Of a stretch of DNA of 53,050 nucleotides, positions 1 through 52,357 are shown one piece after another. Position 1 is the stretch's first letter. Each line of letters begins with the position of its first letter. Under the pieces are notes generated by a model. That model did not search any database, was not told the DNA's origin, and saw only the letters and a program-made list of their open reading frames with translations. A program made the translations under genes and the position numbers. Origin of the DNA: a virus (Duplodnaviria > Heunggongvirae > Uroviricota > Caudoviricetes); IMG/VR virus record IMGVR_UViG_3300012347_000482, positions 1 through 53,050 of that record, one strand, 5' to 3'.

Positions 1-287
1 GCCCATTCGTATGCAGGGCCGTCTTCCCGATGTAGTTGATCGTTAACCCACCATTCTTTTGTGCCATTTGTCCAAATAGTAGCAGGCCCGTCAGTTCGAT
101 GATGTTTTCCTTCAAACCACCACTCTTGTGTACCACTTGGCCGTATGACAGCTGGCCCATCGGTTCGATGCAGCTTGCCTTTGTGCCACCATTCTTTTGT
201 ACCGTCTGCAAACTCACGGCTACATTTAGGATGTACTGGCCGCTCTACGCTACCAATCTTACCTACTAGTTTTGGTCTACTTTTCAT
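1..287 (-). CDS. HRxDGPA 23-aa repeat protein, 3'-truncated by window edge
   Basis: Manual translation from ATG at 287: MKSRPKLVG...WWHKGKLHRTDGPAVIRPSGTQEWWFEGKHHRTDGPA...HREDGPAYEW; open to position 1. Confidence 0.85.
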   Translation of the reverse strand, partial: MKSRPKLVGKIGSVERPVHPKCSREFADGTKEWWHKGKLHRTDGPAVIRPSGTQEWWFEGKHHRTDGPATIWTNGTKEWWVNDQLHREDGPAYEW

Positions 288-329
288 ATAATTCCCTATA
301 TGTAACACAAGAATGTGTCTACAACAATA

Positions 330-1433
330 TTATAGCACTTTTTTGCGGAGGCGTTTAGAATTATTTATTAACATAATGGTTAGCGGATCTGTTATTCGGT
401 CACCGTTTACCCACCACTCTTGAGTTTTGTCTGGCCATGTAACCGCCGGGCCGTTGGTTCTATGTTTTTTGCCGTGTCGGTGCCATACTTCTTGTCCGTC
501 GGTAGTTACAACAGCAGGTCCGTCTGTTCGATGCAGCTTGCCTTTCTGATACCAATACAACGTGCCTTCTCTTCCTATCAGTGCGGGTCCGCCTACTCGA
601 TGATATTTACCATGTTTATACCATGTTGTATCACCATTGCTATGTATAATCGCAGGACCATCAGTCCGATGATATTCGTTGTTAAGCAACCATTCTTTTT
701 GCCCGTTTGGCCAAGTAATAGCAGGACCATCAACTCTATGGCGCTCACCATTAAAGTACCATTCTTTTGTGCCATCTGGCCTAACAATCGCAGGCCCATT
801 AGATCGGTGACGCTTACCATTGTACCACCATGATTCGTATCCGTCCTCGCTTGTAACAGCAGGGCCGTTGGATCGATGTCGTTGGCCATCAACCCACCAC
901 TCCTGGTTACCATCTGTACGAATAACTGCAGGGCCGTCAGTTCGATGCTGCTTCCCGTTAACGAACCACCCTTGAACACCATTTAGTCCTATAAGTGCAG
1001 GGCCATCTAATCGATGCAGTTTGCCGTTGATATACCATCGTTGTTCGCTATTATGTATAACTGCAGGACCATCTAATCGGTGTAGTTGATCGTCAAACCA
1101 CCATTCTTGAGCGCCATCTGCATACACAGTTGCAGGACCATCTGTTCGATGATGCTTCCCATCAACCCACCATTCTTGATCCCAGTCTGAGTGAATCACC
1201 GCAGGTCCATCTGTTCGATGCCGTTCGCCAGATGACGAGGTATATACGATTTGCCCAAAGCCAAGATCGAACGCTATATTCTCATCAACAATAACATCTC
1301 TGTCACCGGTTACTTTAACTTTATAAATACTCCCAGAAACGAGCTTATAAGCACTAGATACCTTCTGGCAAACATCACCGTTGGTATCGATAAAGTTTGC
1401 ACCAATTGCTATTTGTTTAAATGATTTAATCAT
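330..1433 (-). CDS. HRxDGPA repeat protein (12 repeats) with N-terminal beta-barrel-like module
   Basis: 367 aa; repeats HR[TLSV][DNG]GPA; cap ITDPLTIMLINNS; ends KKVL*. Confidence 0.9.
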   Translation of the reverse strand: MIKSFKQIAIGANFIDTNGDVCQKVSSAYKLVSGSIYKVKVTGDRDVIVDENIAFDLGFGQIVYTSSSGERHRTDGPAVIHSDWDQEWWVDGKHHRTDGPATVYADGAQEWWFDDQLHRLDGPAVIHNSEQRWYINGKLHRLDGPALIGLNGVQGWFVNGKQHRTDGPAVIRTDGNQEWWVDGQRHRSNGPAVTSEDGYESWWYNGKRHRSNGPAIVRPDGTKEWYFNGERHRVDGPAITWPNGQKEWLLNNEYHRTDGPAIIHSNGDTTWYKHGKYHRVGGPALIGREGTLYWYQKGKLHRTDGPAVVTTDGQEVWHRHGKKHRTNGPAVTWPDKTQEWWVNGDRITDPLTIMLINNSKRLRKKVL

Positions 1434-2299
1434 ACCGTTTGTCCTATACGTGCCGTATTTCGCATATATCTTCTAACTGACTGCTTTAACGTTTCTATCT
1501 CTAACCATAACGTTTGATGAGGTACATCTAATGTAAAAGTTCGAGATATAGTTCTTCTTTTCTCCCCAATAGCACTATATGTCCAATTATGCGGACATAC
1601 TGCTTTTAAAAAAGTTTCAACTGCTGGATCAGATCCAAAATAGTGTAGTCCTACTTTTACACTATTCTTAAGAGTATGAACATATGCCATGTGTAAGAAC
1701 GGTAACTCTATAATTTTACTCCACAGCGTAATAGCTGTACCATTTTTTTCTTCTCGTTGTACGTACCAGTCTGGTGCATATATTTCATAAAACTCTTTGT
1801 AGAATTCAATTGATTGTTTGTTGTCCGATACTGTGTTATTATCTTCAAACAATGCAGGTACATATTCGCCAGAGTCTGTCCATTGACTTTTTACAATATG
1901 TACGTTCGCATAGCCGCATTTTTTCGGTCGCCGTTCGTATGTTTGCCGAGTTAATGCAAACTCATCTAAAAAATGTTTACCAGCCGAATCGCAAAGTAAA
2001 ATTGCTCCAATTACATTAGTACCCGATACCTGCAATGCAGTGGCGTATCTAATAGTTTTTGCCGCATGAGTTTGGTCTGCCTTTCCAGTAATGTCTTGAT
2101 GCTCGTATACTATTGCACAGTTCTTGGCAGTGTACCCAACTACATCAATCGATCCGTTGCTAATACTTACTCCGCTAACAGCTGAATGCACCTGCGGAAG
2201 ACCAACTAAGTCATTGATTTTATTTAAACTACCAATGTCAGTTGCTAGACTTCGAGTAAATTTAGTTTCGTTGCCCCATTGTTCTTTAAGAGTTCGCAT
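1430..2299 (-). CDS. Putative PD-(D/E)XK nuclease-like protein (NucS/DUF4268-associated type)
   Basis: Motif IDVVG...IVYEHQ...ADQTHAAKTIRYA resembles the ID...E-NQ...DHDHLGKLLTYA signature; recognised from memory only. Confidence 0.55.
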   Translation of the reverse strand: MRTLKEQWGNETKFTRSLATDIGSLNKINDLVGLPQVHSAVSGVSISNGSIDVVGYTAKNCAIVYEHQDITGKADQTHAAKTIRYATALQVSGTNVIGAILLCDSAGKHFLDEFALTRQTYERRPKKCGYANVHIVKSQWTDSGEYVPALFEDNNTVSDNKQSIEFYKEFYEIYAPDWYVQREEKNGTAITLWSKIIELPFLHMAYVHTLKNSVKVGLHYFGSDPAVETFLKAVCPHNWTYSAIGEKRRTISRTFTLDVPHQTLWLEIETLKQSVRRYMRNTARIGQTV

Positions 2300-2357
2300 A
2301 TAATATAATAGGTTAGATAACTAGCAGAAAAAATTTAATAATTGCTGAGTGATAATG

Positions 2358-2996
2358 TTATACGATCTCTGGTTCCTTGTATGTCATCAACATGCCAGTT
2401 AGTATATCGTATGGTTTATCATCGATCCAGTATTCAACTCTCCCGTCGGAACGCTCTACTGCAGGACCATCTGTTCGATGCAATTTACCTCTCCAGTACC
2501 ACTCACGTGTACCATCGGGCCATGTGCGTGCAGGACCATCTGCTCGATGACGATCGTTGTTGTTTATCCATGCTTCGTATCCGTCGTGATGTATAACTGC
2601 AGGACCACCTGTTCGATGACGCGTACCGTTAACCCACCATTCTTGACCACGCACGGTAGTACGTGCAGGGCCGCCGTGTCGGTGATATTTACCATTAAAA
2701 TACCAGTCTTCAGTGCCGTTGCAACTCACAAGAGCAGGACCATCTTCGCGATGCAGTATGTCGTTGTTGTACCAATGTTGTAATCCAGTTTTACCGCAGA
2801 TAACTGCCGGACCATCAGTTCGGTGCCGTTTATTATTCTCGTACCACTCTTGAGTACCATCTGCACGTATAATAGCAGGGCCGTCGGTTCTATGACGATT
2901 TCCGTGTAAATACCAAGATTGACTACCGTCGTTATAAATAACCGCAGGACCATCAGTTCTGTGAAGCTTCTTAAAACGATCACGATATTGTTTCAT
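2358..2996 (-). CDS. HRxDGPA repeat protein
   Basis: 212 aa almost entirely repeats; cap YDILTGMLM. Confidence 0.9.
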   Translation of the reverse strand: MKQYRDRFKKLHRTDGPAVIYNDGSQSWYLHGNRHRTDGPAIIRADGTQEWYENNKRHRTDGPAVICGKTGLQHWYNNDILHREDGPALVSCNGTEDWYFNGKYHRHGGPARTTVRGQEWWVNGTRHRTGGPAVIHHDGYEAWINNNDRHRADGPARTWPDGTREWYWRGKLHRTDGPAVERSDGRVEYWIDDKPYDILTGMLMTYKEPEIV

Positions 2997-3037
2997 GTAA
3001 ACTCCTTAGTAGTCTAAAACATTGCGTTATAACTGTA

Positions 3038-3688
3038 TTATAACACAACTTCTGCTGAAGTTACTTGACGGCGTAAAAGTAATATTGTTAATTCATCAAT
3101 TATCTGAACTCCATCAACCCACCACTCTGTTGTGCCATCTGGCCATATGCGTGCGGGGCCGGCTGTGCGGTGTAGCTTTCCGTTGGCCCACCATGATTTA
3201 TAGCCGCTTAATACGTCAACTGCAGGACCGTCGGTTCGATGACGAACGTTATTAACCCACCACTCGCATGAGTGATCTTCGTGTATAATCGCAGGACCGT
3301 CAGTTCGATGACGCTTACCGTGAAAATACCACTCTTGTGTACCATCTGAGTATATAACAGCAGGGCCATCAGTTCGATGTATATCACCTTCATAGAACCA
3401 CTCTTGTGTACCACTCTCAGTTATCAATGCAGGGCCATCAGTTCGATGTTGCTTGCCGTTAATATACCATCGTTGACTACCATTTGAGTATATAACAGCA
3501 GGGCCGTCTTCTCGATGTAGTTTACCGTCAACATACCAATATCGATGACCGTCTGAGTTTATAACTGCTGGGCCGTCAGTTCGATGTAGTACACCATTAA
3601 CCCGCCATTCTAATGTGCCATCTTCCCATTCGTATGCTGTACTATCTGTTTGATAACTGTGTCTGGATTCGATATTATGGGGTTTCAT
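3038..3688 (-). CDS. HRxDGPA repeat protein
   Basis: 216 aa; cap IIDELTILLL; ends EVVL*. Confidence 0.9.
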   Translation of the reverse strand: MKPHNIESRHSYQTDSTAYEWEDGTLEWRVNGVLHRTDGPAVINSDGHRYWYVDGKLHREDGPAVIYSNGSQRWYINGKQHRTDGPALITESGTQEWFYEGDIHRTDGPAVIYSDGTQEWYFHGKRHRTDGPAIIHEDHSCEWWVNNVRHRTDGPAVDVLSGYKSWWANGKLHRTAGPARIWPDGTTEWWVDGVQIIDELTILLLRRQVTSAEVVL

Positions 3689-4263
3689 AAAACTTTCTTA
3701 ATCTCCTGTTGGAGTAACATAACAGTCAACCGATCAAGTTGATAACCGTTAACCCACCACTCTTGTGTGCCATCTGTGAATTCAGCAGCTGGCCCATCTA
3801 GCCGATGTCTTACATCATTATAAAACCACAGTAAGTGGCCTTCTGCAGATGTAATCGCAGGACCGTCGGCTCGGTGCCGATTACCTTCGAACCACCACTC
3901 TTCGCGTCCATTGGCCCATATCCGTGCTGGGCCGTCAGCTCGGTGTAGTCTGTTGTTGTTATGCCACTCTTGCATACCATCTGCACGTATGATCGAAGGA
4001 CCATCAGTTCGATGTCGTTTACCGTGTATGCGCCACTCTTGCGAGCCGTCTGCACGTATGATCGCAGGACCGTCAGTCCGATGTAGTTTGTTGTTAATAA
4101 ACCACTCCTGAGTTCCGTTGGGCCATATCCGTGCAGGGCCATCTGTTCGATGTAGTTTGCCACGGATATGCCATTCTTCTCTGTTATCTATACGTATGAG
4201 TTTAGGACTATTTTTTTGATGCTGTTGTGATGAGTTGCGATCCTCATTTGAAAATTCTTCCAT
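3685..4263 (-). CDS. HRxDGPA repeat protein
   Basis: 192 aa; cap LDRLTVMLL; ATGA overlap with next gene. Confidence 0.9.
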   Translation of the reverse strand: MEEFSNEDRNSSQQHQKNSPKLIRIDNREEWHIRGKLHRTDGPARIWPNGTQEWFINNKLHRTDGPAIIRADGSQEWRIHGKRHRTDGPSIIRADGMQEWHNNNRLHRADGPARIWANGREEWWFEGNRHRADGPAITSAEGHLLWFYNDVRHRLDGPAAEFTDGTQEWWVNGYQLDRLTVMLLQQEIKKVL

Positions 4264-4310
4264 GATACACTATCCTAAATTAATATCAACATCAGCTTAT
4301 TAAACAGTGC

Positions 4311-5411
4311 TTACTCTGATACTGTCTGTTGACGATTTCCATTGACCCACCACTCTTGGGTGCCATCTTCGTTGATAACTGCCGGACCATCAGTTCGATG
4401 ACGATTGCCATTAATGTACCATTCTTGCGAGCCATCTGCGTATATAAGTGCAGGACCATCTGTTCGATGCTGCTTCCCATTGAGCCACCACTCTTGCGAG
4501 CCATCTGGGTATGTAATCGCAGGGCCGTCTGTTCGATGAGCTTGTCCATTGCAAAACCATCCTTGCATACCGTCTGCCCATTCGTATGCAGGACCGTCTG
4601 TTCGATGCCAGTTGCCATTAATGTACCATTCTTGCGAGCCATCTGTACGTATAACTGCAGGGCCATCAGTTCGATGTAGTTTGCCTTTGAACCACCACTC
4701 CTGGTTACCATCTGTACGAATAACTGCAGGGTCGGCAGTTCGATACCATTTGCCACTTTTATACCACTCTTGCGAGCCATCAGTTCTATGTAGTTTGCCA
4801 TGAAAATACCATCCTTCGCTGTCAGGCCATACTTGTGCAGGACCATCTGTTCGATGGCGTTGTCCATTAAACCACCACTGTTGTGTGCCATCTGCAAGTA
4901 TAACAGCAGGACCATCAGTTCTATGTAGTTTGCCATGAATGTGCCATTCTTCTCTGTCAGGCCATACTCGTGCCGGACCATCTGTTCGATGAAGTTTACT
5001 ATCGAGATACCAGTCCACTCCTCCATTAGCATCTACACACGCAGGACCATCTGTTCGATGACGTCGGTTATTAACCCACCAATGTACTGACCCGTCAGCA
5101 AACTCGACTGCAGGACCATCTGTTCGATGCTGCTTACCGTTGAACCACCACTCTCGATGGCCGTCTGTGTTTATAACTGCAGGACCATCGGTTCGATGCA
5201 GATTGCCTGCAATTGTACGATATTCTGTATTGCCGTCTGTTGTTACAAAAGGCATATTTAACGCCTCTGTAATAATTACATCATCGGGAGTCTTAATGCT
5301 ATCAGTAGTGCCAGTAGGCTGTCTACGTCGCGCAGTTAATTTCATACACACGACACCATCACTATCAACAAAGACTCCGTATTTAGAAACAGCATTAAAT
5401 GTTAATATCAT
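4311..5411 (-). CDS. HRxDGPA repeat protein (13 repeats, one truncated) with N-terminal module
   Basis: 366 aa; N-terminus MILTFNAVSKYGVFVDSDGVVCMK homologous to 5487-6107 and 6109-6990. Confidence 0.9.
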   Translation of the reverse strand: MILTFNAVSKYGVFVDSDGVVCMKLTARRRQPTGTTDSIKTPDDVIITEALNMPFVTTDGNTEYRTIAGNLHRTDGPAVINTDGHREWWFNGKQHRTDGPAVEFADGSVHWWVNNRRHRTDGPACVDANGGVDWYLDSKLHRTDGPARVWPDREEWHIHGKLHRTDGPAVILADGTQQWWFNGQRHRTDGPAQVWPDSEGWYFHGKLHRTDGSQEWYKSGKWYRTADPAVIRTDGNQEWWFKGKLHRTDGPAVIRTDGSQEWYINGNWHRTDGPAYEWADGMQGWFCNGQAHRTDGPAITYPDGSQEWWLNGKQHRTDGPALIYADGSQEWYINGNRHRTDGPAVINEDGTQEWWVNGNRQQTVSE

Positions 5412-5486
5412 ATCCGCCCCTTTACTGTAAAATATATTTCATAAATTTGTGGTGTTAGCTCAACAACTATGTATTGCTTACAAGTA

Positions 5487-6107
5487 TTATAACACAACGT
5501 CTACTGAATTTGTTTGATGTTGTAAAAGCATTACGGTCAACTGATCAACTCGCTTGCCATTTAAGTACCACTCTTGTTCGCCATCTGCACGTATAACAGC
5601 AGGGCCGTCAGTTCGGTGAACTTTTCCGTTAAGCCACCACTCCTGACTACCATCTGTACGTGTAACTGCAGGACCGTCTGTTCGATGCAGTTTGTGATTT
5701 TGATACCATACTCTATCACCATCTGCATATATAACTGCAGGGCCGTCTGTTCTATGTCGAGTGTCGTTAATCCACCACTCTTGTGTACCATCGCTATCGA
5801 TGTATGCAGGACCATCTGTTCGGCCCTTCTTGCCGTTTATATACCAAGCTCGTGTACCATCGTCGTATTCAACAGCAGGACCATCTGTGCGATGATATTT
5901 GCCTGCAATTGTACGGTATATTGTTTCGTTCAATCTGTCATTAAACGGTCTGTTTATGGCTTCTGTGATAATCATATCGTCGGGCGTTTTAATTAACCTT
6001 TGACCCCCAGTAGGTTGCCGATGTTGCATAGTTGCCTTCTTGCACACGACACCATCACTATCAATAAAGATTCCGTATCTAGAAACATTGCTAAATGTTA
6101 ATACCAT
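5487..6107 (-). CDS. HRxDGPA repeat protein with N-terminal module
   Basis: 206 aa; MVLTFSNVSRYGIFIDSDGVVCKK; ends DVVL*. Confidence 0.9.
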   Translation of the reverse strand: MVLTFSNVSRYGIFIDSDGVVCKKATMQHRQPTGGQRLIKTPDDMIITEAINRPFNDRLNETIYRTIAGKYHRTDGPAVEYDDGTRAWYINGKKGRTDGPAYIDSDGTQEWWINDTRHRTDGPAVIYADGDRVWYQNHKLHRTDGPAVTRTDGSQEWWLNGKVHRTDGPAVIRADGEQEWYLNGKRVDQLTVMLLQHQTNSVDVVL

Positions 6108-6108
6108 A

Positions 6109-6990
6109 TTAGTCCTTGTTGTTATAACTAAGCAATAACCAAGTTAGCTTATCGTACAATTGACCATCAACCCAGTACTCTTCAGTGCCGTCTGCTCGGA
6201 TAATTGCAGGACCGTCAGCTCGATGAAGCTGATCATCTTGCCACCACTCTTGGGTGCCATCTTCGTTAATAACTGCGGGGCCGTCATATCGATGACGCTC
6301 GCTATTAAAGTACCAATGTTGATCACCGTCTGCATATACAATTGCAGGACCATCTGTTCGATGGCGTGTGTTATTAACCCACCACTCTAGTCTACCATCT
6401 GGTTGTATAACAGCAGGGCCATCTATTCGGTGGCGTTTACCATCTTGAAACCATCGTTGACTACCATCTACCTGTATAACAGCAGGGCCATCTAGTCGAT
6501 GTAGTTTTCCGTTAATCCACCACTCCTCATGACCGTCCGGGTGTGTAACTGCAGGAGCGTCTAGCCGGTGCTTAAGACCGTTAACGAACCAATGCTTAAC
6601 ACCATTAGCCCGCTCAATAGCAGGACCATCTAGCCGATGAAGCTCGCCGTTTAAGTGCCATTCGTTAGTGCCATTTGTGCATACAAGTGCAGGAGCATCA
6701 GTTCGATGTTGCAGACCATTAACCCACCACTCTTGTGTGCCATCGCTACGAATCATCGCAGGTCCGTCGGTTCGATGTAGATTGCTTTTAATTGTACCGT
6801 GGATAATTGTACCTAATACATCTGCGAACGGTACGCCGTCGGATTCTGTAACAATCATGTCTCTAGGAGTTGCAATGGTAGTAGCCGTACCGGAACGTAT
6901 CCTAGTGCGTCTAGTTATCTGCATACACACAAAGCCGTCGCTATCAACAAAAATTCCATTGTTTACTACATCTTTAAATTTCAATGTCAT
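6109..6990 (-). CDS. HRxDGPA repeat protein with N-terminal module
   Basis: 293 aa; MTLKFKDVVNNGIFVDSDGFVCMQ. Confidence 0.9.
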   Translation of the reverse strand: MTLKFKDVVNNGIFVDSDGFVCMQITRRTRIRSGTATTIATPRDMIVTESDGVPFADVLGTIIHGTIKSNLHRTDGPAMIRSDGTQEWWVNGLQHRTDAPALVCTNGTNEWHLNGELHRLDGPAIERANGVKHWFVNGLKHRLDAPAVTHPDGHEEWWINGKLHRLDGPAVIQVDGSQRWFQDGKRHRIDGPAVIQPDGRLEWWVNNTRHRTDGPAIVYADGDQHWYFNSERHRYDGPAVINEDGTQEWWQDDQLHRADGPAIIRADGTEEYWVDGQLYDKLTWLLLSYNNKD

Positions 6991-7010
6991 ATCCGGCTCT
7001 CTTCTGAAAA

Positions 7011-7409
7011 TTATCTGTCACTTAACGCAATTTGTAAAGCAATGTCGATATGATCAGATACTCCGCCAAACCTAAGTAGCATAATAGTCAATTCGTCAAC
7101 TTGCTTACCATTAAGCCACCACTCTTGCGAGCCATCTGGGCGCATAATAGCAGGTCCATCTGCTCGATGTAATTTGTTGTCAATCCACCACTCTTGTTGT
7201 CCATTGGACCATATCCGTGCAGGTCCATCTGTTCGATGAAATTTGCCATTGATGTACCATTCTTGTACTAATCCGGGTACTACAACTGCAGGACCATCTG
7301 TGCGATGACGCTTACCGTGAAAAAACCACGCGTGGCCACCGTCATCATGCGTAATTGCAGGACCATCTGTTCGATGAAATTGCCCGCGTGTATTTCGATA
7401 TGTTTTCAT
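7011..7409 (-). CDS. HRxDGPA repeat protein
   Basis: 132 aa, 4 repeats; cap VDELTIMLL. Confidence 0.9.
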   Translation of the reverse strand: MKTYRNTRGQFHRTDGPAITHDDGGHAWFFHGKRHRTDGPAVVVPGLVQEWYINGKFHRTDGPARIWSNGQQEWWIDNKLHRADGPAIMRPDGSQEWWLNGKQVDELTIMLLRFGGVSDHIDIALQIALSDR

Positions 7410-7442
7410 GTGGCCCTTAACAGATGTTGTTGACTACACAGT

Positions 7443-7670
7443 TTAAGAAATCGCAACAACTGGTGTAACAGGTTCACCGTCAGTTTCATTGTCGTCCTCG
7501 ACTACTCGGGGCATTCCGTGATATCTCGAAAATGCAACATTCACTTTGGCAACTTTGCGTATGCTAGGAGCTACCTCAGTAGCCCAATGATCGCCATAGT
7601 TGTATACAAAATGCACCTGTGCATCGCTTGGCATTAACATTAGTTCGGAAATTAAATCATCAACTGTCAT
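7443..7670 (-). CDS. Hypothetical phage protein
   Basis: 75 aa ORF, GGAG RBS, promoter directly upstream. Confidence 0.75.
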   Translation of the reverse strand: MTVDDLISELMLMPSDAQVHFVYNYGDHWATEVAPSIRKVAKVNVAFSRYHGMPRVVEDDNETDGEPVTPVVAIS

Positions 7671-7706
7671 ATTAGCTCCTGGGTGATAAAAATTAACTTA
7701 TGCTAT

Positions 7707-7735
7707 ATTATAGCACAAAAAAATTAAAGTGCAAA
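7707..7735 (-). promoter_or_regulatory. Early-type sigma70 promoter TTTGCA-17-TGTGC-TATAAT
   Basis: -10 at 7707-7712, -35 at 7730-7735; 19-bp leader TAAAAATTAACTTATGCTA identical at 7687-7705 and 8970-8988. Confidence 0.7.
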
Positions 7736-7770
7736 TGAACATTGCGACTTTAATTTTTATAGTGATTGTT

Positions 7771-8511
7771 TTATTCTTCGAGTTGACGTTTTGCGATTTC
7801 AATTAAACTAGGATCGGCTTTGGTAAGAACTGCCAGTAGTTCCCGCTTTTCGGGTAGATACACTCGAGCAAAGTTTGCATCGATTATTTCTTTGTTTTTA
7901 GTATTCGATATAATGTCGCATACTTTGATAGTTTGTACTTCGGCAGGAGCACTTGCAAGTAAATCGCGAACATGAGCTTTACGGAAAGTACGACTGCCAA
8001 ATTCAGGACTGGTTAAATCAGTTAACCATTCAACGTAATTAGCTACTGTCTCGCCAAACTCGCTACTAATAAATTCATCAGTTAAGCTAGTATCTTCAAC
8101 TACATCATGAAGCCAAGCAGCAGCGATCATTTCATCGGTATGTGGCACTGTACTTACAAGGTTAGCAACTTCGGCAGGGTGATTCCAATACGGCTCGTTT
8201 GTAAACTTACGATACTGATCAGATGCTGTATGAGCTGTAATGGCACACATTCTAGCTCGTTCGACTAGCATACTAGGAACCTTGACTTCTGTGGGTTCTT
8301 TAACTGAGTCCACTGAAATAAATCTTGGCATGTTTCCGGGACTGTGTCCATCGAATACATAGTTGTCGAGGGTTAGCAGTAAATCTTTTAGATCTAATGC
8401 AGGCCATCGACCGATCATTGTGCGATCGTCTTCGGTTACTGAAAAGTACAACTTAGTAGTACCTTCATCAATTTGTGATTTAAAGATATGTTCTAAATCA
8501 TCGATATTCAT
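7771..8511 (-). CDS. HD-domain hydrolase, RelA/SpoT/Mesh1 (p)ppGpp-hydrolase-like, with ~80-aa N-terminal extension
   Basis: AH..Q.RKFTNEPYWNHP.EVA, AAWLHDVVEDT, IKVCDIISN motifs. Confidence 0.85.
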   Translation of the reverse strand: MNIDDLEHIFKSQIDEGTTKLYFSVTEDDRTMIGRWPALDLKDLLLTLDNYVFDGHSPGNMPRFISVDSVKEPTEVKVPSMLVERARMCAITAHTASDQYRKFTNEPYWNHPAEVANLVSTVPHTDEMIAAAWLHDVVEDTSLTDEFISSEFGETVANYVEWLTDLTSPEFGSRTFRKAHVRDLLASAPAEVQTIKVCDIISNTKNKEIIDANFARVYLPEKRELLAVLTKADPSLIEIAKRQLEE

Positions 8512-8554
8512 AATTGGGTCCTTGTGTTAGTAATAGTATTCACTTCTGCAATAA

Positions 8555-8956: not shown

Positions 8957-8990
8957 ATATACGCTCCTTTAAAAATTAACTTATGCTAGT

Positions 8991-20479: not shown

Positions 20480-21070
20480 TTATTGATTGTCACTGGAATA
20501 TTTTGCAAGCATTACGGTCAACTCGTCCACTGCTACACCGTTAAGCCACCACTCTTGAGTGCCATCGGCTTTTATCGTAGCAGGACCATCTAGTCGATGA
20601 CGCTCATCGTTAAAATACCAAGCCCGATATCCGTTTATGCCTTCATACGCAGGTCCGTCAACTCTGTGGCGTTTATCGTGTTGGCACCATACTCTATCAC
20701 CGTTTGGATGTATAATCGCGGGTCCGTCTGTTCGATGAGTTTGCCCATTGTAATACCATCTTTGTTTGCCGTTAGGGTCTATGCATGCGGGACCATCTGT
20801 TCGATGCAGTTCACCAAGGCTATACCATCTTACTTCGCCGGATTGTAATATTACCGCAGGACCATCATTGCGATGGAGGGTTTCACCAATATACCATCCC
20901 CATCCGGGCTCTCCGTCTACTTGCACAGCTACAGGTAGATTTTTATTTTGGGCAGTTGGCTGATACGAATAGGGTAGTTCTCGATGTGAAGTCGATGTTA
21001 GTAATAATACATAAACTAACCAAACTACCATCGCTACCACTAAGAAAGATATAACTATATCCATATCCAT
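20480..21070 (-). CDS. HRxDGPA repeat protein with N-terminal transmembrane helix
   Basis: IVISFLVVAMVVWLVYVLLL followed by 5 repeats and cap VDELTVMLA. Confidence 0.88.
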   Translation of the reverse strand: MDMDIVISFLVVAMVVWLVYVLLLTSTSHRELPYSYQPTAQNKNLPVAVQVDGEPGWGWYIGETLHRNDGPAVILQSGEVRWYSLGELHRTDGPACIDPNGKQRWYYNGQTHRTDGPAIIHPNGDRVWCQHDKRHRVDGPAYEGINGYRAWYFNDERHRLDGPATIKADGTQEWWLNGVAVDELTVMLAKYSSDNQ

Positions 21071-22095: not shown

Positions 22096-22410
22096 CTACC
22101 GATTAGTAGCGTCGGACTGCATTTGTGCATACAATAACCATCCTGACAGTTGATCCGGTACTCGTATACCCTCGATAAACCATTCTTGGTGCCCGTTTGC
22201 CCAAGTAACAGCAGGTCCATCGACTCTATGACGTTTACCGTTAAACCACCACTCCTCGTAGCCATCTGGATGTGATACTGCAGGTCCATTTGTTCGATGT
22301 AGCTTGCCGGCAACATACCATGCGCAAGTCCCGTCATTAAAAACAAAAGGATTATCAGGATCAGGATCATACGCAGATGAGTTATCGCAATACCGTATTT
22401 GAATTGCCAT
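22096..22410 (-). CDS. Short HRxDGPA repeat protein
   Basis: 104 aa, 2 repeats plus cap. Confidence 0.85.
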   Translation of the reverse strand: MAIQIRYCDNSSAYDPDPDNPFVFNDGTCAWYVAGKLHRTNGPAVSHPDGYEEWWFNGKRHRVDGPAVTWANGHQEWFIEGIRVPDQLSGWLLYAQMQSDATNR

Positions 22411-24761: not shown

Positions 24762-25223
24762 TTATGCGAATGTTTGTGATTTTTTTAACAGCAATATGGT
24801 TAATTGATCAGTAATATGTTGTCCATTAACCCACCACTGTTGTTCCCCATCGGAGCGTATAATAGCAGGGCCATCAGTTCGATGCCGCTTACCGTGAAAA
24901 TACCAATGATATGTCCCACTTGTTGTTGACAGAGCAGGGCCATCAGTTCGATGAAATTTGCCATTAAAATACCAGTATTCAGTACCGTCGGTATCTGTAA
25001 CAGCAGGCCCATCAGTTCGATGGCATACTCCATCACAATGCCACGCCTGGTAACCATCTGCATATACAACAGAAGGACCATCTTCTCGGTGCTTTTTACC
25101 ATTCACATACCAATGTTTAGTGCCATTCATATATTCAATAGCAGGCCCATCTAGTCGGTGAAAGTTATTATTACTTTTGTACGTTATCGTACCATCTGTG
25201 CGAATATATTTACGTGTTGCCAT
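24762..25223 (-). CDS. HRxDGPA repeat protein
   Basis: 153 aa; cap ITDQLTILLL. Confidence 0.9.
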   Translation of the reverse strand: MATRKYIRTDGTITYKSNNNFHRLDGPAIEYMNGTKHWYVNGKKHREDGPSVVYADGYQAWHCDGVCHRTDGPAVTDTDGTEYWYFNGKFHRTDGPALSTTSGTYHWYFHGKRHRTDGPAIIRSDGEQQWWVNGQHITDQLTILLLKKSQTFA

Positions 25224-25270: not shown

Positions 25271-25792
25271 TTATAGCACAATTTTATACGACTGTTTGTG
25301 ATTTTTTAAAAGCAAAATAGTTAATTGATCAGTAATGTGTTTCCCATCGATCCACCATTGAGTACTGCCGTCTTCCCAGGTAACAGCTGGGCCATCTAGT
25401 CGATGTAGCTGTCCATTAACAAACCATTCTTCATGACCACCCAGTGTCGTAATTGCAGGGCCGCCTATTCGATGTACTTTGCCGTCGATGTACCATCGTG
25501 TACCTCCAGTTGCCCACTCGCATGCAGGACCGTCTAGCCTATGACGCACTCCTTCAACAAACCACTCTCGCGTACCATCATCAGATATAACAGCAGGGCC
25601 ATTAGTTCGATGCGGTTTTCCGTGTTTATACCAGTATTCGCCTCCTTTGGGAGTCATAATAGCAGGTCCATCTAACCGATGTAATCGCTTATTAAGATAC
25701 CAATTACCGTGTTTATCTTGATGCAGTCCGCTAGTATTAGGATGATCTTCAGTCATAAAGTGTTCGCTAAAGAATACGGATGAATAAGTCAA
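25271..25792 (-). CDS. HRxDGPA repeat protein
   Basis: 173 aa; cap ITDQLTILLL; ends KIVL*. Confidence 0.9.
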   Translation of the reverse strand: MTYSSVFFSEHFMTEDHPNTSGLHQDKHGNWYLNKRLHRLDGPAIMTPKGGEYWYKHGKPHRTNGPAVISDDGTREWFVEGVRHRLDGPACEWATGGTRWYIDGKVHRIGGPAITTLGGHEEWFVNGQLHRLDGPAVTWEDGSTQWWIDGKHITDQLTILLLKNHKQSYKIVL

Positions 25793-30047: not shown

Positions 30048-30398
30048 TTAGCTAACTGAATCACGACACTTTAATAGTTCGACTAGTCTAAGAGATTCAG
30101 GTAGTGCATCGAGCCAATTATCGTAGCTATAACGGACATTGTGCAAATACCAGTCGCATTCTCCGTGCGCATATTCTACAGCAGGACCATCTTCTCGATG
30201 CATCTCTCCATTTATCATCCACGCACTGTGTCGGCCTGGAAAGATACATGCAGGTCCGTCGAGTCGGTGAAGCAGTCCATTTTGCCTCCATTCAATTACT
30301 CCGTGTGCCCATTCAACAGCTGGGCCATCGTCGCGATGAATTCGCCCCTCGTCGTTAAACCAAATAGTTGTACCAGAACTGAAAGTCTTCTTAATCAT
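30048..30398 (-). CDS. HRxDGPA repeat protein (type-2 cap)
   Basis: Start MIKKTF (ATGA overlap); 3 repeats; cap YDNWLDALPESLRLVELLK. Confidence 0.85.
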   Translation of the reverse strand: MIKKTFSSGTTIWFNDEGRIHRDDGPAVEWAHGVIEWRQNGLLHRLDGPACIFPGRHSAWMINGEMHREDGPAVEYAHGECDWYLHNVRYSYDNWLDALPESLRLVELLKCRDSVS

Positions 30399-31363
30399 AC
30401 TACTCCTTTGTTGCTCATAACCCAATGTGTAAATTTGTCAACTTCATGATCGTTAACGTACCACTCTTGTCTACCATCTGCACGTATAACAGCAGGACCA
30501 TCTGTTCGATGGCGTTCATCATTTTGATACCACTCCTGAGTTCCGTTTGCCCTAATAACAGCAGGCCCATCAGTTCGGTGACGCTTACCATTAACCCACC
30601 ATTCTTGATTACCATTTGCACTATTTACAGCAGGGCCGTCAAGTCGATGGCGCTTTCCGTTGACCCACCATGCTGTACTGCCATCTGCATACATAGTAGC
30701 AGGACTATCGATTCGATGATAAAACCCATTTATCATCCATGCTCGATATCCGCTAGGATCAATAACAGCAGGCTCGTCTAGTCGATGTTGAGATCCGTTA
30801 ACCCACCATTCTTGAGTACCATCTGCATATACAACAGCAGGGCCGTCTTCTCGATGAAGATGTCCATTGACTCGCCATTCTTGATGTCCGCTAGTATGAA
30901 CTACTGCAGGGCCGTCAGTTCGATGCTGCTCCCCATTAACCCACCATTCTCTAGCATGAGCACCATGCACTATCGCAGGGCCATCTGTTCGATGTCTCTT
31001 ACCTTGATAAAACCATTCTTGATCACCGTCTGGGTTTTCAATAGCAGGACCATCTGTTCGATGCTTCTTACCATTAACCCACCAAGCTTTATGTCCTGTT
31101 GCGTGCTCTATAGCAGGCCCGTCGTCTCGGTGTCGTACGCCATTTCGATACCACTCTTTTCTGCCTTTGTTGCTTTCTATAGCAGGCCCGTCGTCTCGGT
31201 GCAATTTATTAAGACGATACCATTTGTTGATGCCGGTTGCAAATGTAACTGCAGGGCCGTCTTCTCGATGAAGCAGCCCGTTTAAATACCATTCGATGAT
31301 ATTACCTGAGTCTTTTTCTACAACTACCGGTTGCGGAGTTAATTGATTAACTGTATTAGTCAT
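30395..31363 (-). CDS. HRxDGPA repeat protein (long)
   Basis: Likely start MTNTV at 31363, downstream of promoter 31395-31423. Confidence 0.88.
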   Translation of the reverse strand: MTNTVNQLTPQPVVVEKDSGNIIEWYLNGLLHREDGPAVTFATGINKWYRLNKLHRDDGPAIESNKGRKEWYRNGVRHRDDGPAIEHATGHKAWWVNGKKHRTDGPAIENPDGDQEWFYQGKRHRTDGPAIVHGAHAREWWVNGEQHRTDGPAVVHTSGHQEWRVNGHLHREDGPAVVYADGTQEWWVNGSQHRLDEPAVIDPSGYRAWMINGFYHRIDSPATMYADGSTAWWVNGKRHRLDGPAVNSANGNQEWWVNGKRHRTDGPAVIRANGTQEWYQNDERHRTDGPAVIRADGRQEWYVNDHEVDKFTHWVMSNKGVV

Positions 31364-31575: not shown

Positions 31576-31866
31576 CTAAGTACTCAGCATCGCCAATAGT
31601 TTATATTGGTCGGGTAATTGATCAACCCAGTCTTTATAGGAGTATTGTTTATCATCGATACACCACTGTCGTAATCCGTTAAAATATGTAACTGCTGGGC
31701 CATCTAGTCGATGGCATTTTCCATGCCAATACCATGCAGAGGTACCCGAGGAAAGAATCATTGCAGGGCCGTCTTCTCGATGTAGCAGCCCGTTGACTGT
31801 CCAGGTAATCGTGCCAACTTCGCTAATTTTCATTTCACTTGGTGAATCAGATAAACATGTGTTCAT
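31576..31866 (-). CDS. Short HRxDGPA repeat protein (type-2 cap)
   Basis: 96 aa, 2 repeats. Confidence 0.85.
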   Translation of the reverse strand: MNTCLSDSPSEMKISEVGTITWTVNGLLHREDGPAMILSSGTSAWYWHGKCHRLDGPAVTYFNGLRQWCIDDKQYSYKDWVDQLPDQYKLLAMLST

Positions 31867-48719: not shown

Positions 48720-49796
48720 TTAAGTCATTGCTTGCAATACATACTTACCAAAACGCTTATGGAACTCGTTAAAAGTACTCATCTTAGCAGGATCCAACGG
48801 CAAGTTGTAGTTAGTCAACGCAGTCTTTGCACCCATAACAACAATCTCTGTCGAGAAGTTAGCCATCATGTACTCAAAGAACTTATCTGCCATGTTATCC
48901 CAACCCTTAACTTTCTTATCTGCACGATCTTTCAATTCGTAACATAAGCTAGTTGTTAGTGTATACATCGCTGATATATCTTTAACTTCTAACGTTTTAA
49001 CTTTGCCATCTAAAATATCTTCTGCTTTAGGTAACTTGCCAGCAATCTTACGGTGTGCCATAAACTTAACAGCTAAGCCATCCCCAATAGAGCCGCTAAT
49101 TAGTGTTGTAAGTGTTTCAATGTCGCAATCGTCATCTGTTAACAATTCGCTAACAAAGGACCAGCTACGTGGTGTAGCAAAGGACTTGCTAGCACTCTTA
49201 GGATCGAAGTCATATAAATCTTGCTTTGCAAAGCTAACATAACCAACAACTTCAGGATGCAACTTGTTAAGCGTAGCCCAATCTTGCCAGTCATCAAACT
49301 CAACTTTAGCTTCAATATGTACAAAGCGGTTAGCTAACGGAGCAGGCATACGATATGTTACGCCACGATCGCCTTCCCTGTTACCTGCTGCAACAATATC
49401 AACAGACTTAGGTAACTCATAAGTACCTACACGGCGATTTAAAATTAACTGATACGCTGCCGCTTGCACTGTAGGCGCCGCACTGTTAAGTTCGTCTAAG
49501 AAAATAATCGAATTGTCACTAAACAATGTCGGCAACTCTGCGGGTGGCGCCCATACCATCTTACCTAATGTACTATCAAAGTACGGAATACCTTTAATAT
49601 CTGTCGGCTCCCATAAAGCTAAGCGAACATCAATAACACGTCGACCTAAGTCAGCGCCAATTTGTTGCACAATGTCAGATTTGCCAATACCAGGGGGGCC
49701 CCATACAAACACAGGACGGTGTACGGAAATTGCCTTGCGAATTGCACGTTTAGCTGCCTTAGGACCAACTTGACGAATGCTAATATCTTTGCTCAT
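48720..49796 (-). CDS. MoxR-like AAA+ ATPase
   Basis: Walker A GPPGIGKS, Walker B IIFLDE, AAGN, PLANRF. Confidence 0.92.
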   Translation of the reverse strand: MSKDISIRQVGPKAAKRAIRKAISVHRPVFVWGPPGIGKSDIVQQIGADLGRRVIDVRLALWEPTDIKGIPYFDSTLGKMVWAPPAELPTLFSDNSIIFLDELNSAAPTVQAAAYQLILNRRVGTYELPKSVDIVAAGNREGDRGVTYRMPAPLANRFVHIEAKVEFDDWQDWATLNKLHPEVVGYVSFAKQDLYDFDPKSASKSFATPRSWSFVSELLTDDDCDIETLTTLISGSIGDGLAVKFMAHRKIAGKLPKAEDILDGKVKTLEVKDISAMYTLTTSLCYELKDRADKKVKGWDNMADKFFEYMMANFSTEIVVMGAKTALTNYNLPLDPAKMSTFNEFHKRFGKYVLQAMT

Positions 49797-49846
49797 AGTG
49801 TGCTCTTTCTTTAAAAATAACTAACAAAATAACTAACACAAAAACA

Positions 49847-50116
49847 TATTATAACACAACATTTACTGACTGTAAACGAATGTTTTAATATTTTTACTAC
49901 TTAATAACTTAATTAAGTAAACTTATTATAACACAACATTTACTGACTGTAAACGAATGTTTTTAATATTTTTTACTACTTAATTTAATTAAGTAAACTT
50001 ATTATAACACAAAAAAATTGACTTGCAACTGATTTTTATGTTATAATGAAACAACACGTATTACCGTATTGCTTATTGCATAACTGTATTATATATAACA
50101 ACAAAAAATATGCAAA
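49847..50116. promoter_or_regulatory. Four stacked leftward promoters (~77-bp tandem duplication) plus a divergent rightward promoter
   Basis: GTTTACA-17-TGTGT-TATAAT at 49848-49877 and 49925-49954; further -10 boxes at 50001 and 50088; plus-strand TTGACT-18-TATAAT at 50018-50047. Confidence 0.8.
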
Positions 50117-50153
50117 TGATATTTTTGGTTAAAATTTAAATGGTAAATATCAG

Positions 50154-51644
50154 ATGATATCTTCTACATCGTTTCTCGATTCAGTCTACACAAAAATACC
50201 CGCTCGCCAACGTCAATGGCATATCGACAACAATGTCTATTCACTAGTCATGTGTAAGCACTGCCAATCAGTTACAGTTGGGTGGAGCGTTAAGAACAAA
50301 CGATATTCAACTTACTGCGGATCGAAGTGTGCAAACTCGACTGCCGAAGTGAAAGACAAGCGGGCACAGACCTGTGTCGTTCGGTATAACTCAACCACCA
50401 ACCTATCTACTGCCGAAAACAAACAACGAGCGAAAGATACATGCGTTGCAAAATACGGTGTTGATAATTTTTCAAAGACTGAACAGTTTGGTACTAAATT
50501 TAAACAGACGGTAATGGATCGTTACGGAGTCGATAATCCAAGCAAGTTACAATCGGTTAAGGACAAGATAACTGATTCACACTTATCTAAATACAATCGA
50601 AAGCGAGCATCGCAGGTTCATATTCCGATCGATGTAATAGCATTGAAAGATGACCGTAACGAAATGATCAGGCTTTACAATGAGTTAAAGATGCCAATAT
50701 CGGAAATTGCGGAGTTGTTGGGAGTTAATCATAGTCAGTTGTGTGTTCACTTCAAAGACAATCTAGGTATAGATATTTCAAGGCATGCAGTCTCGATGGG
50801 CGAAAGACAAATATATGATTTTGTGCTAACGCTGGATCCTACAGTGGTACAATCTGATAGGACTGTGATCAAACCTAAAGAACTCGACATATACTCTAAA
50901 GCCCACAACGTTGCGATTGAGGTAAATGGTCTAGCATGGCATTCGGAGCTGAGAGGCAAGGGCAAGAACTACCACAAGGACAAAACTGTACTATGCGGGC
51001 AGCGGGGCCTTAGGCTAATTCACATCTTTGATCTCGAATGGAGCACTAAACAAGATATCGTAAAATCTCGATTGAGATCAGTGTTTGGTAAAAATACTGT
51101 AGTGTGGGCGCGAAAGTGTAAAATTGTTAAAATGGAGTCAAGTGATGGTGCTGAGTTCTTTGCTCGCACTCATATACAAGGGCCGTGTGTGGCTAAGGTC
51201 ACGTATGGACTCGAATACGATGGCAAAGTTGTATGTGCTATGAGTTTCGGCACACCTAGATTTGATAAATCGCAATCTTGGGAACTGTTACGATTTTCAA
51301 ATGAATTGAATACTAATGTAGTAGGCGGTGCTGGACGACTGTTGAAACACTTTATCAAAGGGCATTTGCCTACGTCGATCATTAGCTACTGTGACTTGAG
51401 ATGGAATACGGGGAATTTGTATGAGCAGTTAGGGTTTACATTGGTACGTACAACTGAACCAAACTACTGGTATACTTTTAAACACGCTACGTTGGAACAT
51501 CGAATGAACTATCAGAAGCACAAGTTAAAAGACAAACTCCCACACTACGATGAAACGCTTACTACTTGGGATAACTTAGTAGCTAACGGTTACGATCGTG
51601 TGTGGGACTGTGGGAACAGCGTATTTGTTATGGCACTTGACTAA
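50154..51644 (+). CDS. Hef-like free-standing homing endonuclease with C-terminal Mom/GNAT-like domain
   Basis: CKHC...CGSKC Zn motif; KYGVDN(F/P)SK repeats; Vsr-like ELDIY...AIEVNGLAWHS...RLIHIFDLEW; tail WELLRF...VVGGAGRLLKHF...ISYCD...G.LY..LGF. Confidence 0.8.
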   Translation: MISSTSFLDSVYTKIPARQRQWHIDNNVYSLVMCKHCQSVTVGWSVKNKRYSTYCGSKCANSTAEVKDKRAQTCVVRYNSTTNLSTAENKQRAKDTCVAKYGVDNFSKTEQFGTKFKQTVMDRYGVDNPSKLQSVKDKITDSHLSKYNRKRASQVHIPIDVIALKDDRNEMIRLYNELKMPISEIAELLGVNHSQLCVHFKDNLGIDISRHAVSMGERQIYDFVLTLDPTVVQSDRTVIKPKELDIYSKAHNVAIEVNGLAWHSELRGKGKNYHKDKTVLCGQRGLRLIHIFDLEWSTKQDIVKSRLRSVFGKNTVVWARKCKIVKMESSDGAEFFARTHIQGPCVAKVTYGLEYDGKVVCAMSFGTPRFDKSQSWELLRFSNELNTNVVGGAGRLLKHFIKGHLPTSIISYCDLRWNTGNLYEQLGFTLVRTTEPNYWYTFKHATLEHRMNYQKHKLKDKLPHYDETLTTWDNLVANGYDRVWDCGNSVFVMALD

Positions 51645-52357
51645 CTGTTATTTCCATACCGCATGGCCATAAAAATTTGTTGGTCATCCGGTATGCGTGT
51701 TAGCCATTCTTTAAATTTAATTTTGTGTCCACCGACCCACCATTCAACTTTACCAGACGTGTATTCTACTGCAGGTCCGTCTAGTCGATGAATCATTCCG
51801 AGTCTACACCATGTTTTATACTCGGATGTTTCAACTGCTGGACCATCTTCGCGATGTCTCACTCCGTCAACCCACCACTCTTGTTCGCCATCTGAGCGTG
51901 TAACAGCAGGACCATCTGCTCGATGTTGTTTGCCATTAACCCACCACTCTCGATCAGTATTTTCCCAAATAGCAGCAGGCCCATCTGCTCGATGGCGCTT
52001 TCCGTACATATACCAGTATTCGCTTCCTTTGGCAGTCTGAATAGCAGGACCGCCTTCGCGATGGCGTTCTCCATTAACCCACCATTCTTTTCCACCATTC
52101 CTATGAATAACAGCAGGCCCATCTGCTCGATGTCGTCTGTGATTAATCCACCACTCTTGTGTGCCATTTCTTTCTATAACAGCAGGACCATCTTCGCGAT
52201 GGCGTTTGCCAAATAAGAACCAAGCTTTACGCCCGGAGTTATCTTCTATAGCAGGACCGCCAAGTCGGTGAAGTTCACCGTCGAGATAATAATTAGTGGC
52301 TCCGTTATGCTGATGCACCGCAAACAGCGATTTATCAGTAGTGTCAGTTGTCGTCAT
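51641..52357 (-). CDS. HRxDGPA repeat protein (type-2 cap)
   Basis: Start MTTTDT; cap EWLTRIPDDQQIFMAMRYG; stop overlaps the endonuclease stop convergently. Confidence 0.88.
   Translation of the reverse strand: MTTTDTTDKSLFAVHQHNGATNYYLDGELHRLGGPAIEDNSGRKAWFLFGKRHREDGPAVIERNGTQEWWINHRRHRADGPAVIHRNGGKEWWVNGERHREGGPAIQTAKGSEYWYMYGKRHRADGPAAIWENTDREWWVNGKQHRADGPAVTRSDGEQEWWVDGVRHREDGPAVETSEYKTWCRLGMIHRLDGPAVEYTSGKVEWWVGGHKIKFKEWLTRIPDDQQIFMAMRYGNNS

What the first reader, a model, noticed from the sequence alone, without database searches (positions are those of the whole stretch)
1..52357. Arsenal of 24 modular HRxDGPA repeat proteins: candidate diversifying binding-scaffold system
Seen: 24 minus-strand genes share a 23-aa unit (consensus HR[T/L/E/A/I]DGPA-[VI]-x3-[DN]G-x-[QK]E-W-[WY]-x-[ND]G-x-x) at 1 to 13 copies each. 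Sixteen are packed into 1-15426; the rest lie at 20.5, 22.1, 24.8, 25.3, 30.0, 30.4, 31.6 and 51.6 kb. Framework residues (H, R, DGPA, G, W-W/Y, NG) are fixed while defined positions vary. Architecture is [variable N-module]-[n repeats]-[cap helix]. Established: similar HRxDGPA repeats occur in giant viruses and some phages and resemble MORN-like beta-hairpin repeats; I know of no assigned function. Inference: a dedicated early-expressed family of binding scaffolds (anti-defence decoys/sponges, host-protein or nucleic-acid binders) whose specificity is tuned by repeat number and variable positions.
Basis: partly seen in the sequence, partly recalled or inferred. Interest (0 to 1): 0.82.

Follow-up and report, generated by a model that had tools for sequence, protein, structure and literature searches.

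The report
Expanded MORN-like repeat genes, jumbo phage
An uncultivated freshwater giant phage carries 24 old, individually conserved early genes for proteins built from a 23-residue MORN-type beta-hairpin repeat, most likely a panel of protein binders whose targets and function are unknown.

Summary
Exactly 24 minus-strand ORFs carry 135 strict HRxDGPA motifs (about 159 units, period 23 aa). None is on the plus strand or in the other 92 kb of the record. The window is the start of a 145.7-kb IMG/VR fragment of a jumbo phage.

An AlphaFold model (pLDDT 85) matches only MORN proteins. Sequence models do not: there is no Pfam MORN hit, and DUF6745 matches over one repeat only.

The family lies in an arm rich in host-type extended -10 promoters (TGTTATAAT). 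Six genes end inside the promoter of the next gene.

Compared with a 94%-identical relative, 13 orthologues are under purifying selection:
- pN/pS is 0.19 overall, as in neighbouring genes.
- pN/pS is 0.05 at framework positions and 0.48 at the most variable loop positions.

Three genes differ by exact 23-aa repeat indels and replaced blocks, and one gene is present only here. Point-mutation diversification is therefore not supported. Modular change is.

The repeat type is very common and unstudied: 28,099 cluster representatives in phages, giant viruses and bacterial mobile elements. This scan has already met similar arrays in at least seven other genomes.

Best reading: an early-expressed repertoire of specific protein binders. 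An anti-defence role is untested.

The parts
1..287 (-). Repeat gene 1. Its C-terminal part is cut by the end of the record; 3 units are visible.
330..1433 (-). Repeat gene, 367 aa: ~70-aa N-module, 12 units, class I cap helix. It ends ..KKVL-stop inside the promoter at 329-337.
2358..2996 (-). Repeat gene, 212 aa, 8 units.
   Evidence: orthologue pN/pS 0.11
3038..3688 (-). Repeat gene, 216 aa, 7 units. The relatives have 193 aa, one unit fewer. It ends inside the promoter at 3037-3045.
3685..4263 (-). Repeat gene, 192 aa, 6 units.
4311..5411 (-). Repeat gene, 366 aa: N-module, 11 regular units plus 2 degenerate ones, no cap helix.
5487..6107 (-). Repeat gene, 206 aa: N-module, 5 units, cap helix. 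This is the member that was modelled. The relatives have 183 aa, one unit fewer. Its stop codon lies inside the TATAAT of the promoter at 5486-5494.
6109..6990 (-). Repeat gene, 293 aa: N-module, 9 units. It is absent from relatives L001 and L002 but bridged by contigs of other public runs.
7011..7409 (-). Repeat gene, 132 aa, 4 units.
9547..10431 (-). Repeat gene, 294 aa: N-module, 9 units.
10463..11551 (-). Repeat gene of 362 codons with an in-frame TAG at 11414-11416 (GAG in L001). It has two more units than L001 and replaced blocks of 62-67% nt identity.
11582..12532 (-). Repeat gene, 316 aa: N-module, 10 units. It has its own promoter at 12564-12572.
13169..13351 (-). Smallest member, 60 aa: 1 unit plus cap.
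13354..13989 (-). Repeat gene, 211 aa, 7 units, class II cap.
13997..14623 (-). Repeat gene, 208 aa, 7 units.
14674..15426 (-). Repeat gene, 250 aa, 8 units (two irregular), class II cap.
20480..21070 (-). Repeat gene, 196 aa: N-terminal hydrophobic (membrane) helix, 5 units.
22096..22410 (-). Repeat gene, 104 aa, 2 units.
24762..25223 (-). Repeat gene, 153 aa, 5 units.
25271..25756 (-). Repeat gene, 161 aa, 5 units. It ends ..KIVL-stop inside the promoter at 25270-25278.
30048..30398 (-). Repeat gene, 116 aa, 3 units, class II cap.
30395..31363 (-). Repeat gene, about 322 aa, 12 units. The start is moved to the ATG behind the promoter at 31395-31403.
31576..31866 (-). Repeat gene, 96 aa, 2 units, class II cap.
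51641..52372 (-). Repeat gene, 243 aa, 8 units, class II cap.
10462..10470 (-). Example of an extended -10 promoter (TGTTATAAT) that overlaps the last codons and stop of gene 10463-11551 and serves gene 9547-10431. Equivalent sites lie at 329-337, 3037-3045, 5486-5494, 11581-11589 and 25270-25278.

Best explanation
The 24 genes are a lineage-specific expansion of one protein type: a soluble, elongated beta-sheet solenoid made of 23-residue MORN-fold hairpins. It usually has a small N-terminal module and a short C-terminal capping helix.

The genes lie in the phage's early arm. They are probably transcribed by the host RNA polymerase from extended -10 promoters soon after infection, in short operons of one to four genes.

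Each paralogue is old and is kept by purifying selection, including at its 'variable' loop positions. The set therefore looks like a repertoire of binders, each fitted to a different protein partner. The partners are most likely host proteins that the phage must capture, redirect or neutralise.

The repertoire changes mainly by modules: loss or gain of exact repeats, replacement of repeat blocks by recombination, and gain or loss of whole gene-plus-promoter units.

Shown here: the family, the fold, the promoter motifs, the selection pattern and the modular differences. Inferred: early timing, protein binding and host targets.
For: - Motif counts and period are as described.
- The AlphaFold model has pLDDT 85, above 93 in the repeats, with a C-terminal helix at 189-198.
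- Every Foldseek match in PDB at E<=0.001 (12 chains, then 21 more ranks) and the top 30 in Swiss-Prot models are MORN proteins: MORN1, junctophilin, MORN4, radial spoke proteins, SETD7. MORN arrays are protein-interaction modules with a binding groove (PMC7725318).
- 34 TGNTATAAT sites lie on the minus strand against 4 on the plus strand. 31 of the 34 are in the first 60 kb. Late-type TATAAATA/CATAAATA boxes lie elsewhere on the plus strand.
- For 13 orthologue pairs, pN/pS is 0.19, against 0.17 in 9 neighbouring genes. It is 0.05 at framework positions, 0.32 at variable positions and 0.48 at positions 10, 11 and 14 (Fisher p=0.014 against equal rates).
- Positions 10-14 form the turn between two strands in the model.
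- Paralogues are only 65-73% nt and 43-61% aa identical.
- There are four exact 23-aa indels, mosaic blocks and one gene present or absent relative to 94%-identical relatives.
- No signal peptides are apparent, and only one member has a membrane helix.
Against: - No partner, host or expression datum exists. No RNA evidence could be laid.
- Foldseek TM-scores to solved MORN proteins are modest (0.3-0.4), as is usual for twisted repeat arrays.
- Purifying selection fits any conserved function, not only binding.
- One gene carries a premature stop, so not all copies need be functional.
Confidence: 0.55

Rival explanations
1. The array is an anti-defence or immunity bank. Each paralogue would bind and neutralise a different host toxin or defence effector, as YwqK-type MORN-variant immunity proteins neutralise LXG or T6SS toxins.
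For: - A JGI homologue is named 'antitoxin YwqK'.
- ESM Atlas structural neighbours include bacterial clusters named YwqK-family antitoxin.
- Bacterial copies lie in mobile-element contexts next to MobC/NikA, an integrase, an orphan methylase and AbiGi.
- The genes sit in an early region with HD and HIT hydrolase genes among them.
Against: - NCBIfam gave no YwqK match and PADLOC gave no match.
- No toxin gene lies beside the copies examined.
- There is no arms-race signature in point substitutions.
Confidence: 0.2
2. The proteins are self-assembling structural or scaffold proteins, for example of an intracellular phage compartment or cytoskeleton-like lattice, as MORN1 forms oligomeric rings.
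For: Solved MORN1 proteins dimerise tail-to-tail and oligomerise (PMC7725318). The gene dosage is high, with many copies.
Against: - 24 strongly diverged paralogues of very different length do not fit a uniform lattice.
- Early host-type promoters, rather than late ones, precede the genes.
- None of the 24 N-termini fits the capsid-targeting-type leader motif that earlier notes report elsewhere in this genome.
Confidence: 0.08
3. The proteins are membrane- or lipid-targeting modules that bring cargo to the cell envelope, the original proposal for MORN repeats.
For: One member (20480-21070) has an N-terminal membrane helix. This is the historical MORN annotation.
Against: Lipid binding by MORN repeats was re-examined and not supported (PMC7725318). 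23 of the 24 members lack membrane segments and have no fused cargo domains.
Confidence: 0.05
4. The proteins are nucleic-acid binders or DNA mimics.
For: The proteins have an elongated repeat surface.
Against: pI values run from 5.1 to 9.2, with net charges between -11 and +4. They show neither the strong acidity of DNA mimics nor strong basicity.
Confidence: 0.05
5. The array is a neutral or selfish repeat expansion without function, or an annotation or assembly artefact.
For: One copy has a premature stop. Repeat regions assemble poorly in short-read contigs.
Against: - Purifying selection is as strong as in neighbouring genes.
- All other frames are intact.
- The same genes with the same lengths occur in independent assemblies.
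- The phage is found in runs of 12 studies.
Confidence: 0.03

Closest known systems
MORN repeat proteins with solved structures (MORN1 of T. brucei, T. gondii and P. falciparum, 6t68/6t69/6t4d; MORN4-Myo3a, 6jle; junctophilin-2, 7rxe; radial spoke RSP1)
   Same: They share the 23-residue period, the beta-hairpin solenoid and the W-x-N-G-K-x-H half of the motif, and they act as protein-binding modules. All top fold matches are of this kind.
   Different: The canonical GxG start and YEGEW strand are replaced by R-x-D-G-P-A and E-W-[WY]. There is no Pfam MORN hit. The phage proteins are small, stand alone, and carry their own N-module and cap helix.
Pfam MORN_2 (PF07661) / YwqK-family antitoxins of LXG and T6SS toxin systems
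   Same: These are bacterial small repeat proteins of the same fold class. Some homologues are so named by pipelines.
   Different: Only 2 of 50 family members touch MORN_2. There is no NCBIfam YwqK match. No partner toxin gene was seen.
Pfam DUF6745 (PF20530)
   Same: 44 of 50 members match it.
   Different: Matches cover about 25-30 of the 206 profile positions, which is one hairpin, at scores near the cut-off. The domain as a whole is not present.
Expanded repeat-protein families of giant viruses (MORN, ankyrin and F-box families of Pandoravirus, Marseillevirus and Mimiviridae)
   Same: There are many diverged paralogues of a binding repeat in one large viral genome, with variable content between strains and unknown function. 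BFVD matches include mimivirus R871 and MORN proteins of Pandoravirus and Klosneuviruses (PMC6418002, PMC8208085).
   Different: The host is bacterial. The genes are short early units with sigma-70-type promoters. The sequence subtype is HRxDGPA.
Lineage-specific expansions in jumbo phages (for example ~35 zinc-ribbon copies in Bacillus phage G, PMC7824862), and MORN-like arrays seen earlier by this scan in other phage genomes
   Same: One small domain is multiplied tens of times in one large phage. Earlier scan notes describe the same promoter-in-gene-end arrangement.
   Different: The domain differs from that of phage G. Here comparative data from a 94%-identical relative quantify selection and modular change.

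Membership tests
MORN repeat superfamily (fold level) | Tandem units of about 23 residues | tested here: met
   124 of 135 spacings are exactly 23 aa.
MORN repeat superfamily (fold level) | Each unit is a beta-hairpin, and the array forms an elongated sheet like solved MORN proteins | tested here: met
   The AF2 model has pLDDT above 93 in the repeats. The best Foldseek hits in PDB, Swiss-Prot models and BFVD are MORN proteins at probability 1.0 and TM 0.3-0.6.
Canonical MORN (Pfam PF02493) | The sequence signature GxG ... G ... YEGEW (PMC7725318) and a match to the Pfam model | tested here: not met
   There is no PF02493 hit at E<=1 in 50 members. The GxG position is occupied by R-x-D-G-P-A.
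MORN_2 / YwqK-family antitoxin | A match to PF07661 or to the NCBIfam YwqK model | tested here: not met
   2 of 50 members match PF07661. There are no NCBIfam hits.
MORN_2 / YwqK-family antitoxin | The gene is paired with a toxin gene (LXG, deaminase or T6SS effector) | tested here: inconclusive
   No toxin family was found among the neighbours scanned in the window and in bacterial or phage loci. Many neighbours are unannotated.
DUF6745 (PF20530) | A match over the ~206-position domain above the gathering score | tested here: not met
   Only profile positions ~53-83 are matched. Scores are 21-44 bits around the 27-bit cut-off.
Diversity-generating (DGR-type) variable proteins | A reverse transcriptase plus a near-identical template/variable repeat pair | tested here: not met
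   There is no RVT_1 match in the 145.7-kb record, which is a fragment. No repeat pair above ~81% identity exists inside the family.
Viral multigene repeat families (lineage-specific expansion) | Many diverged paralogues in one genome, absent from more distant relatives, with content that varies between strains | tested here: met
   There are 24 paralogues. Phages at ~50% aa identity lack them at the syntenic locus. Gene and repeat differences exist relative to 94%-identical relatives.

The most novel reading that the evidence does not exclude
The array is a germline-encoded panel of target-specific binders. Each early protein would capture a different host defence effector or toxin. The panel would be retuned not by point mutation but by adding, deleting and swapping 23-residue modules and whole promoter-plus-gene cassettes. 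It would be a phage counterpart of the host-range multigene families of poxviruses and giant viruses.
Probability: 0.22. Interest if true: 0.8.

Novelty: new variant of a known kind. Interest (0 to 1): 0.5.

Why it matters
The HRxDGPA repeat family is one of the larger protein families without any study. It has 28,099 cluster representatives at 50% identity, found in phages, giant viruses and bacterial mobile elements. It has no dedicated Pfam repeat model, and no paper was found for the motif.

Large phages multiply it to dozens of copies, which argues for an important function specific to each lineage, early in infection. This window offers a well-defined test set:
- 24 members of 60-367 aa;
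- a near relative that shows which copies are stable and which are being remodelled;
- simple predictions (early transcription, specific partners) that expression and pull-down experiments could settle.

Tried and rejected
- **Homodimer prediction** for 24762-25223 gave no verdict, so nothing can be said about self-association.
- **Contigs of four public runs** laid on 1-16000 were fragmented in the repeat genes, and the many 'joints' are cross-matches between paralogues. They are uninformative for copy-number variation. They only show that the phage, and the arrangement across 5650-7216, exist in other samples.
- **Megablast** of 10 kb against cultured phages found no match.
- **tblastn** of one member found only Atu_ph07, Celeribacter phage P12053L and one uncultured phage.
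- **PHROGs, NCBIfam, PADLOC and PDB sequence searches** found nothing useful.
- **The search for related loci** with the family alignment failed for lack of a conserved stretch. A degenerate DNA pattern was used instead.
- **Literature** searches for the motif strings and for MORN with phage anti-defence gave no papers.
- **A donor** for the replaced block in gene 10463-11551 was not found among the paralogues at hand; the best match was 74%.
- **The capsid-targeting-type leader** reported elsewhere in this genome fits none of the 24 N-termini listed. This was checked by eye, not by a pattern search.
- **A DGR mechanism** was rejected.
- **The whole record of the relative** could not be searched.
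Full report
**What the window is.** It is the first 53,050 bases of a 145,656-base linear IMG/VR virus record that CheckV rates 41% complete. Almost all genes are short and lie on the minus strand.
- The rest of the record holds ribonucleotide reductase, tail-fibre-like and virion proteins.
- A MoxR-like ATPase is 52% identical to those of PA5oct-like Pseudomonas jumbo phages.
- Near-identical DNA occurs in freshwater, pond, wastewater and other aquatic metagenomes of 12 studies.

This is therefore a fragment of an uncultivated jumbo phage.

**The observation.** A six-frame scan finds 135 HRxDGPA-type motifs on the minus strand and none on the plus strand.
None lies in the other 92 kb of the record.
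- With relaxed anchors there are 159 units, and 124 of 135 spacings are exactly 23 residues.
- H1, R2, P6 and W17 are essentially invariant. D4, G5, A7, G13 and G21 are strongly conserved, with an aromatic at 18 and N at 20. Positions 10, 11 and 14 are the most variable.
- Seven genes share a diverged ~70-aa N-module (17-63% identity), and one has an N-terminal membrane helix.
- Most genes end in a short helix of the type D-x-L-T-[IV]-[ML]-L-L. Five have a longer W-L-x-x-x-P...L-K-Y-G type cap, and one has none.

**Fold.** An AlphaFold2 model of 5487-6107 reached mean pLDDT 85, above 93 through the repeats. It shows regular short strands and a C-terminal helix.
- Foldseek against PDB gave 12 matches at E<=0.001, all MORN proteins: MORN1 of three protists, junctophilin-2, MORN4 and radial-spoke proteins. 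Ranks 13-33 are MORN proteins too.
- Swiss-Prot models gave the same picture.
- BFVD gave uncultured phage proteins at ~45% identity, mimivirus R871, Megavirus, Marseillevirus, Klosneuvirus and Pandoravirus MORN proteins, and several Atu_ph07 proteins.

At sequence level the family is not a canonical MORN.
- No PF02493 hit was found, and 2 of 50 members touch MORN_2.
- 44 of 50 touch DUF6745, but over one hairpin only.
- Against the structure-based MORN consensus (GxG, G10, YEGEW; PMC7725318), the W-x-N-G-K-x-H half is kept. The GxG start is replaced by R-x-D-G-P-A.

I file it as a distinct sequence subtype of the MORN fold.

**Expression signals.**
- TGNTATAAT occurs 34 times on the minus strand, 31 of them in the first 60 kb, and 4 times on the plus strand. 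It is often preceded by an xxxACA or TTTACA hexamer at 17-18 nt.
- T4-late-like TATAAATA/CATAAATA boxes cluster instead on the plus strand beyond 60 kb.
- In six family genes the last codons (..V/I-V-L-stop, as GTT GTG TTA TAA T) are themselves the extended -10 element of the next gene. This explains the conserved C-terminal 'VL'.

The family is thus arranged as short operons of one to four genes behind host-type promoters. This supports early expression by inference. No RNA data could be used.

**Evolution.** Within the window the paralogues are old: 65-73% nt and 43-61% aa identity, with no recent duplicates. Assemblies L001/L251, L002 and L003 from other samples are about 94% identical and syntenic over the ~26 kb available (window ~1-26,800).
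- For 13 collinear orthologue pairs, pN/pS is 0.19. For nine neighbouring non-repeat genes it is 0.17.
- Inside regular units it is 0.05 at framework positions, 0.32 at the variable positions and 0.48 at positions 10, 11 and 14. All are significantly below 1.

Even the variable residues are therefore conserved within a paralogue. This argues for paralogue-specific function and against point-mutation diversification.

Change is modular.
- Genes 5487-6107 and 3038-3688 each have one exact 23-aa unit more than in the relatives.
- Gene 10463-11551 has two more units than L001, but not than L002.
- The same gene has ~180-nt blocks at 62-67% identity between flanks at 97-100%.
- Gene 6109-6990 is absent from L001 and L002.
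- In 60-nt windows, 7.7% of those in repeat genes fall below 75% identity, against none in other DNA. Part of that 7.7% is paralogous cross-matching at the absent gene.
- The window's copy of 10463-11551 carries a premature TAG.
- There is no reverse transcriptase and no template/variable repeat pair.

**Distribution.**
- The family is very large: 28,099 representatives at E<=0.001 and 14,329 at E<=1e-10 among 1.84 billion 50%-identity clusters. Members reach about 1,900 aa.
- Arrays recur. One 122-kb IMG/VR record has over 100 matches in dozens of genes.
- More distant relatives of this phage (~50% aa identity) lack the family at the syntenic locus.
- Bacterial copies are small stand-alone proteins beside mobilisation, integrase, methylase and AbiGi genes.
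- No paper mentions the motif, or MORN in phage anti-defence.
- Giant-virus MORN families and other jumbo-phage expansions are documented (PMC6418002, PMC8208085, PMC7824862).
- Earlier notes of this scan describe comparable arrays of 5 to about 31 genes in at least seven other genomes, including the promoter-in-gene-end arrangement. My results agree with them independently.

**Mechanism.** The best-supported reading is an early-expressed repertoire of specific protein binders.
- The proteins have no catalytic domains, no secretion signals and no charge bias.
- MORN arrays bind partners through a groove or by oligomerisation (PMC7725318).
- The most variable positions sit in the turn between strands.

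Whether the partners are defence effectors, other host proteins or phage proteins is open. The YwqK-type immunity analogy is attractive, but nothing here tests it.

**Verdict.** The finding is a large example of a recurrent, unstudied phenomenon rather than a one-off.

Noticed in passing
window 49842-50012: Three tandem ~77-nt copies (94% identical) of a TTTACA-N17-TGTTATAAT promoter lie upstream of the MoxR-like AAA ATPase gene 48720-49796.
   Followed up: partly
window 50154-51644 (+): The only plus-strand gene of the window is a 496-aa homing/HNH endonuclease (phrog_3339, E 1.6e-118). It lies tail-to-tail with repeat gene 51641-52372.
   Followed up: partly
window 41294-42568 and 48720-49796: A DUF2201 metallopeptidase+VWA protein and a MoxR-like AAA ATPase occur together, a pair typical of MoxR-VWA systems.
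   Followed up: no
window 12610-13080: A gene-free ~470-nt stretch lies inside the array. Contigs of four public runs replace 12793-12906 by 129 other letters and carry small indels near 12756-12766. Another first-stage note flags it as a candidate structured RNA.
   Followed up: no
window 7771-8511 and 15436-15822: An HD_4-type phosphohydrolase and a HIT-family protein sit among the repeat genes and are conserved in the relatives.
   Followed up: partly
window 11414-11416: An in-frame TAG interrupts the N-module of gene 10463-11551, whereas relative L001 has GAG. The copy may be broken, may be a strain variant, or may restart at the ATG at 11323.
   Followed up: partly
IMGVR_UViG_3300042477_000802 (locus L084, handle G004): This 122-kb viral record has more than 100 matches to the repeat protein, spread over dozens of ~105-200-aa genes. 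The expansion is far larger than in this window.
   Followed up: partly
L193/L194 (MAG contig JABXKB010000001.1, labelled Promethearchaeota): A 56-kb contig of an archaeal MAG holds at least 18 two-unit pattern matches in 11 ORFs. It may be a binned viral contig.
   Followed up: no
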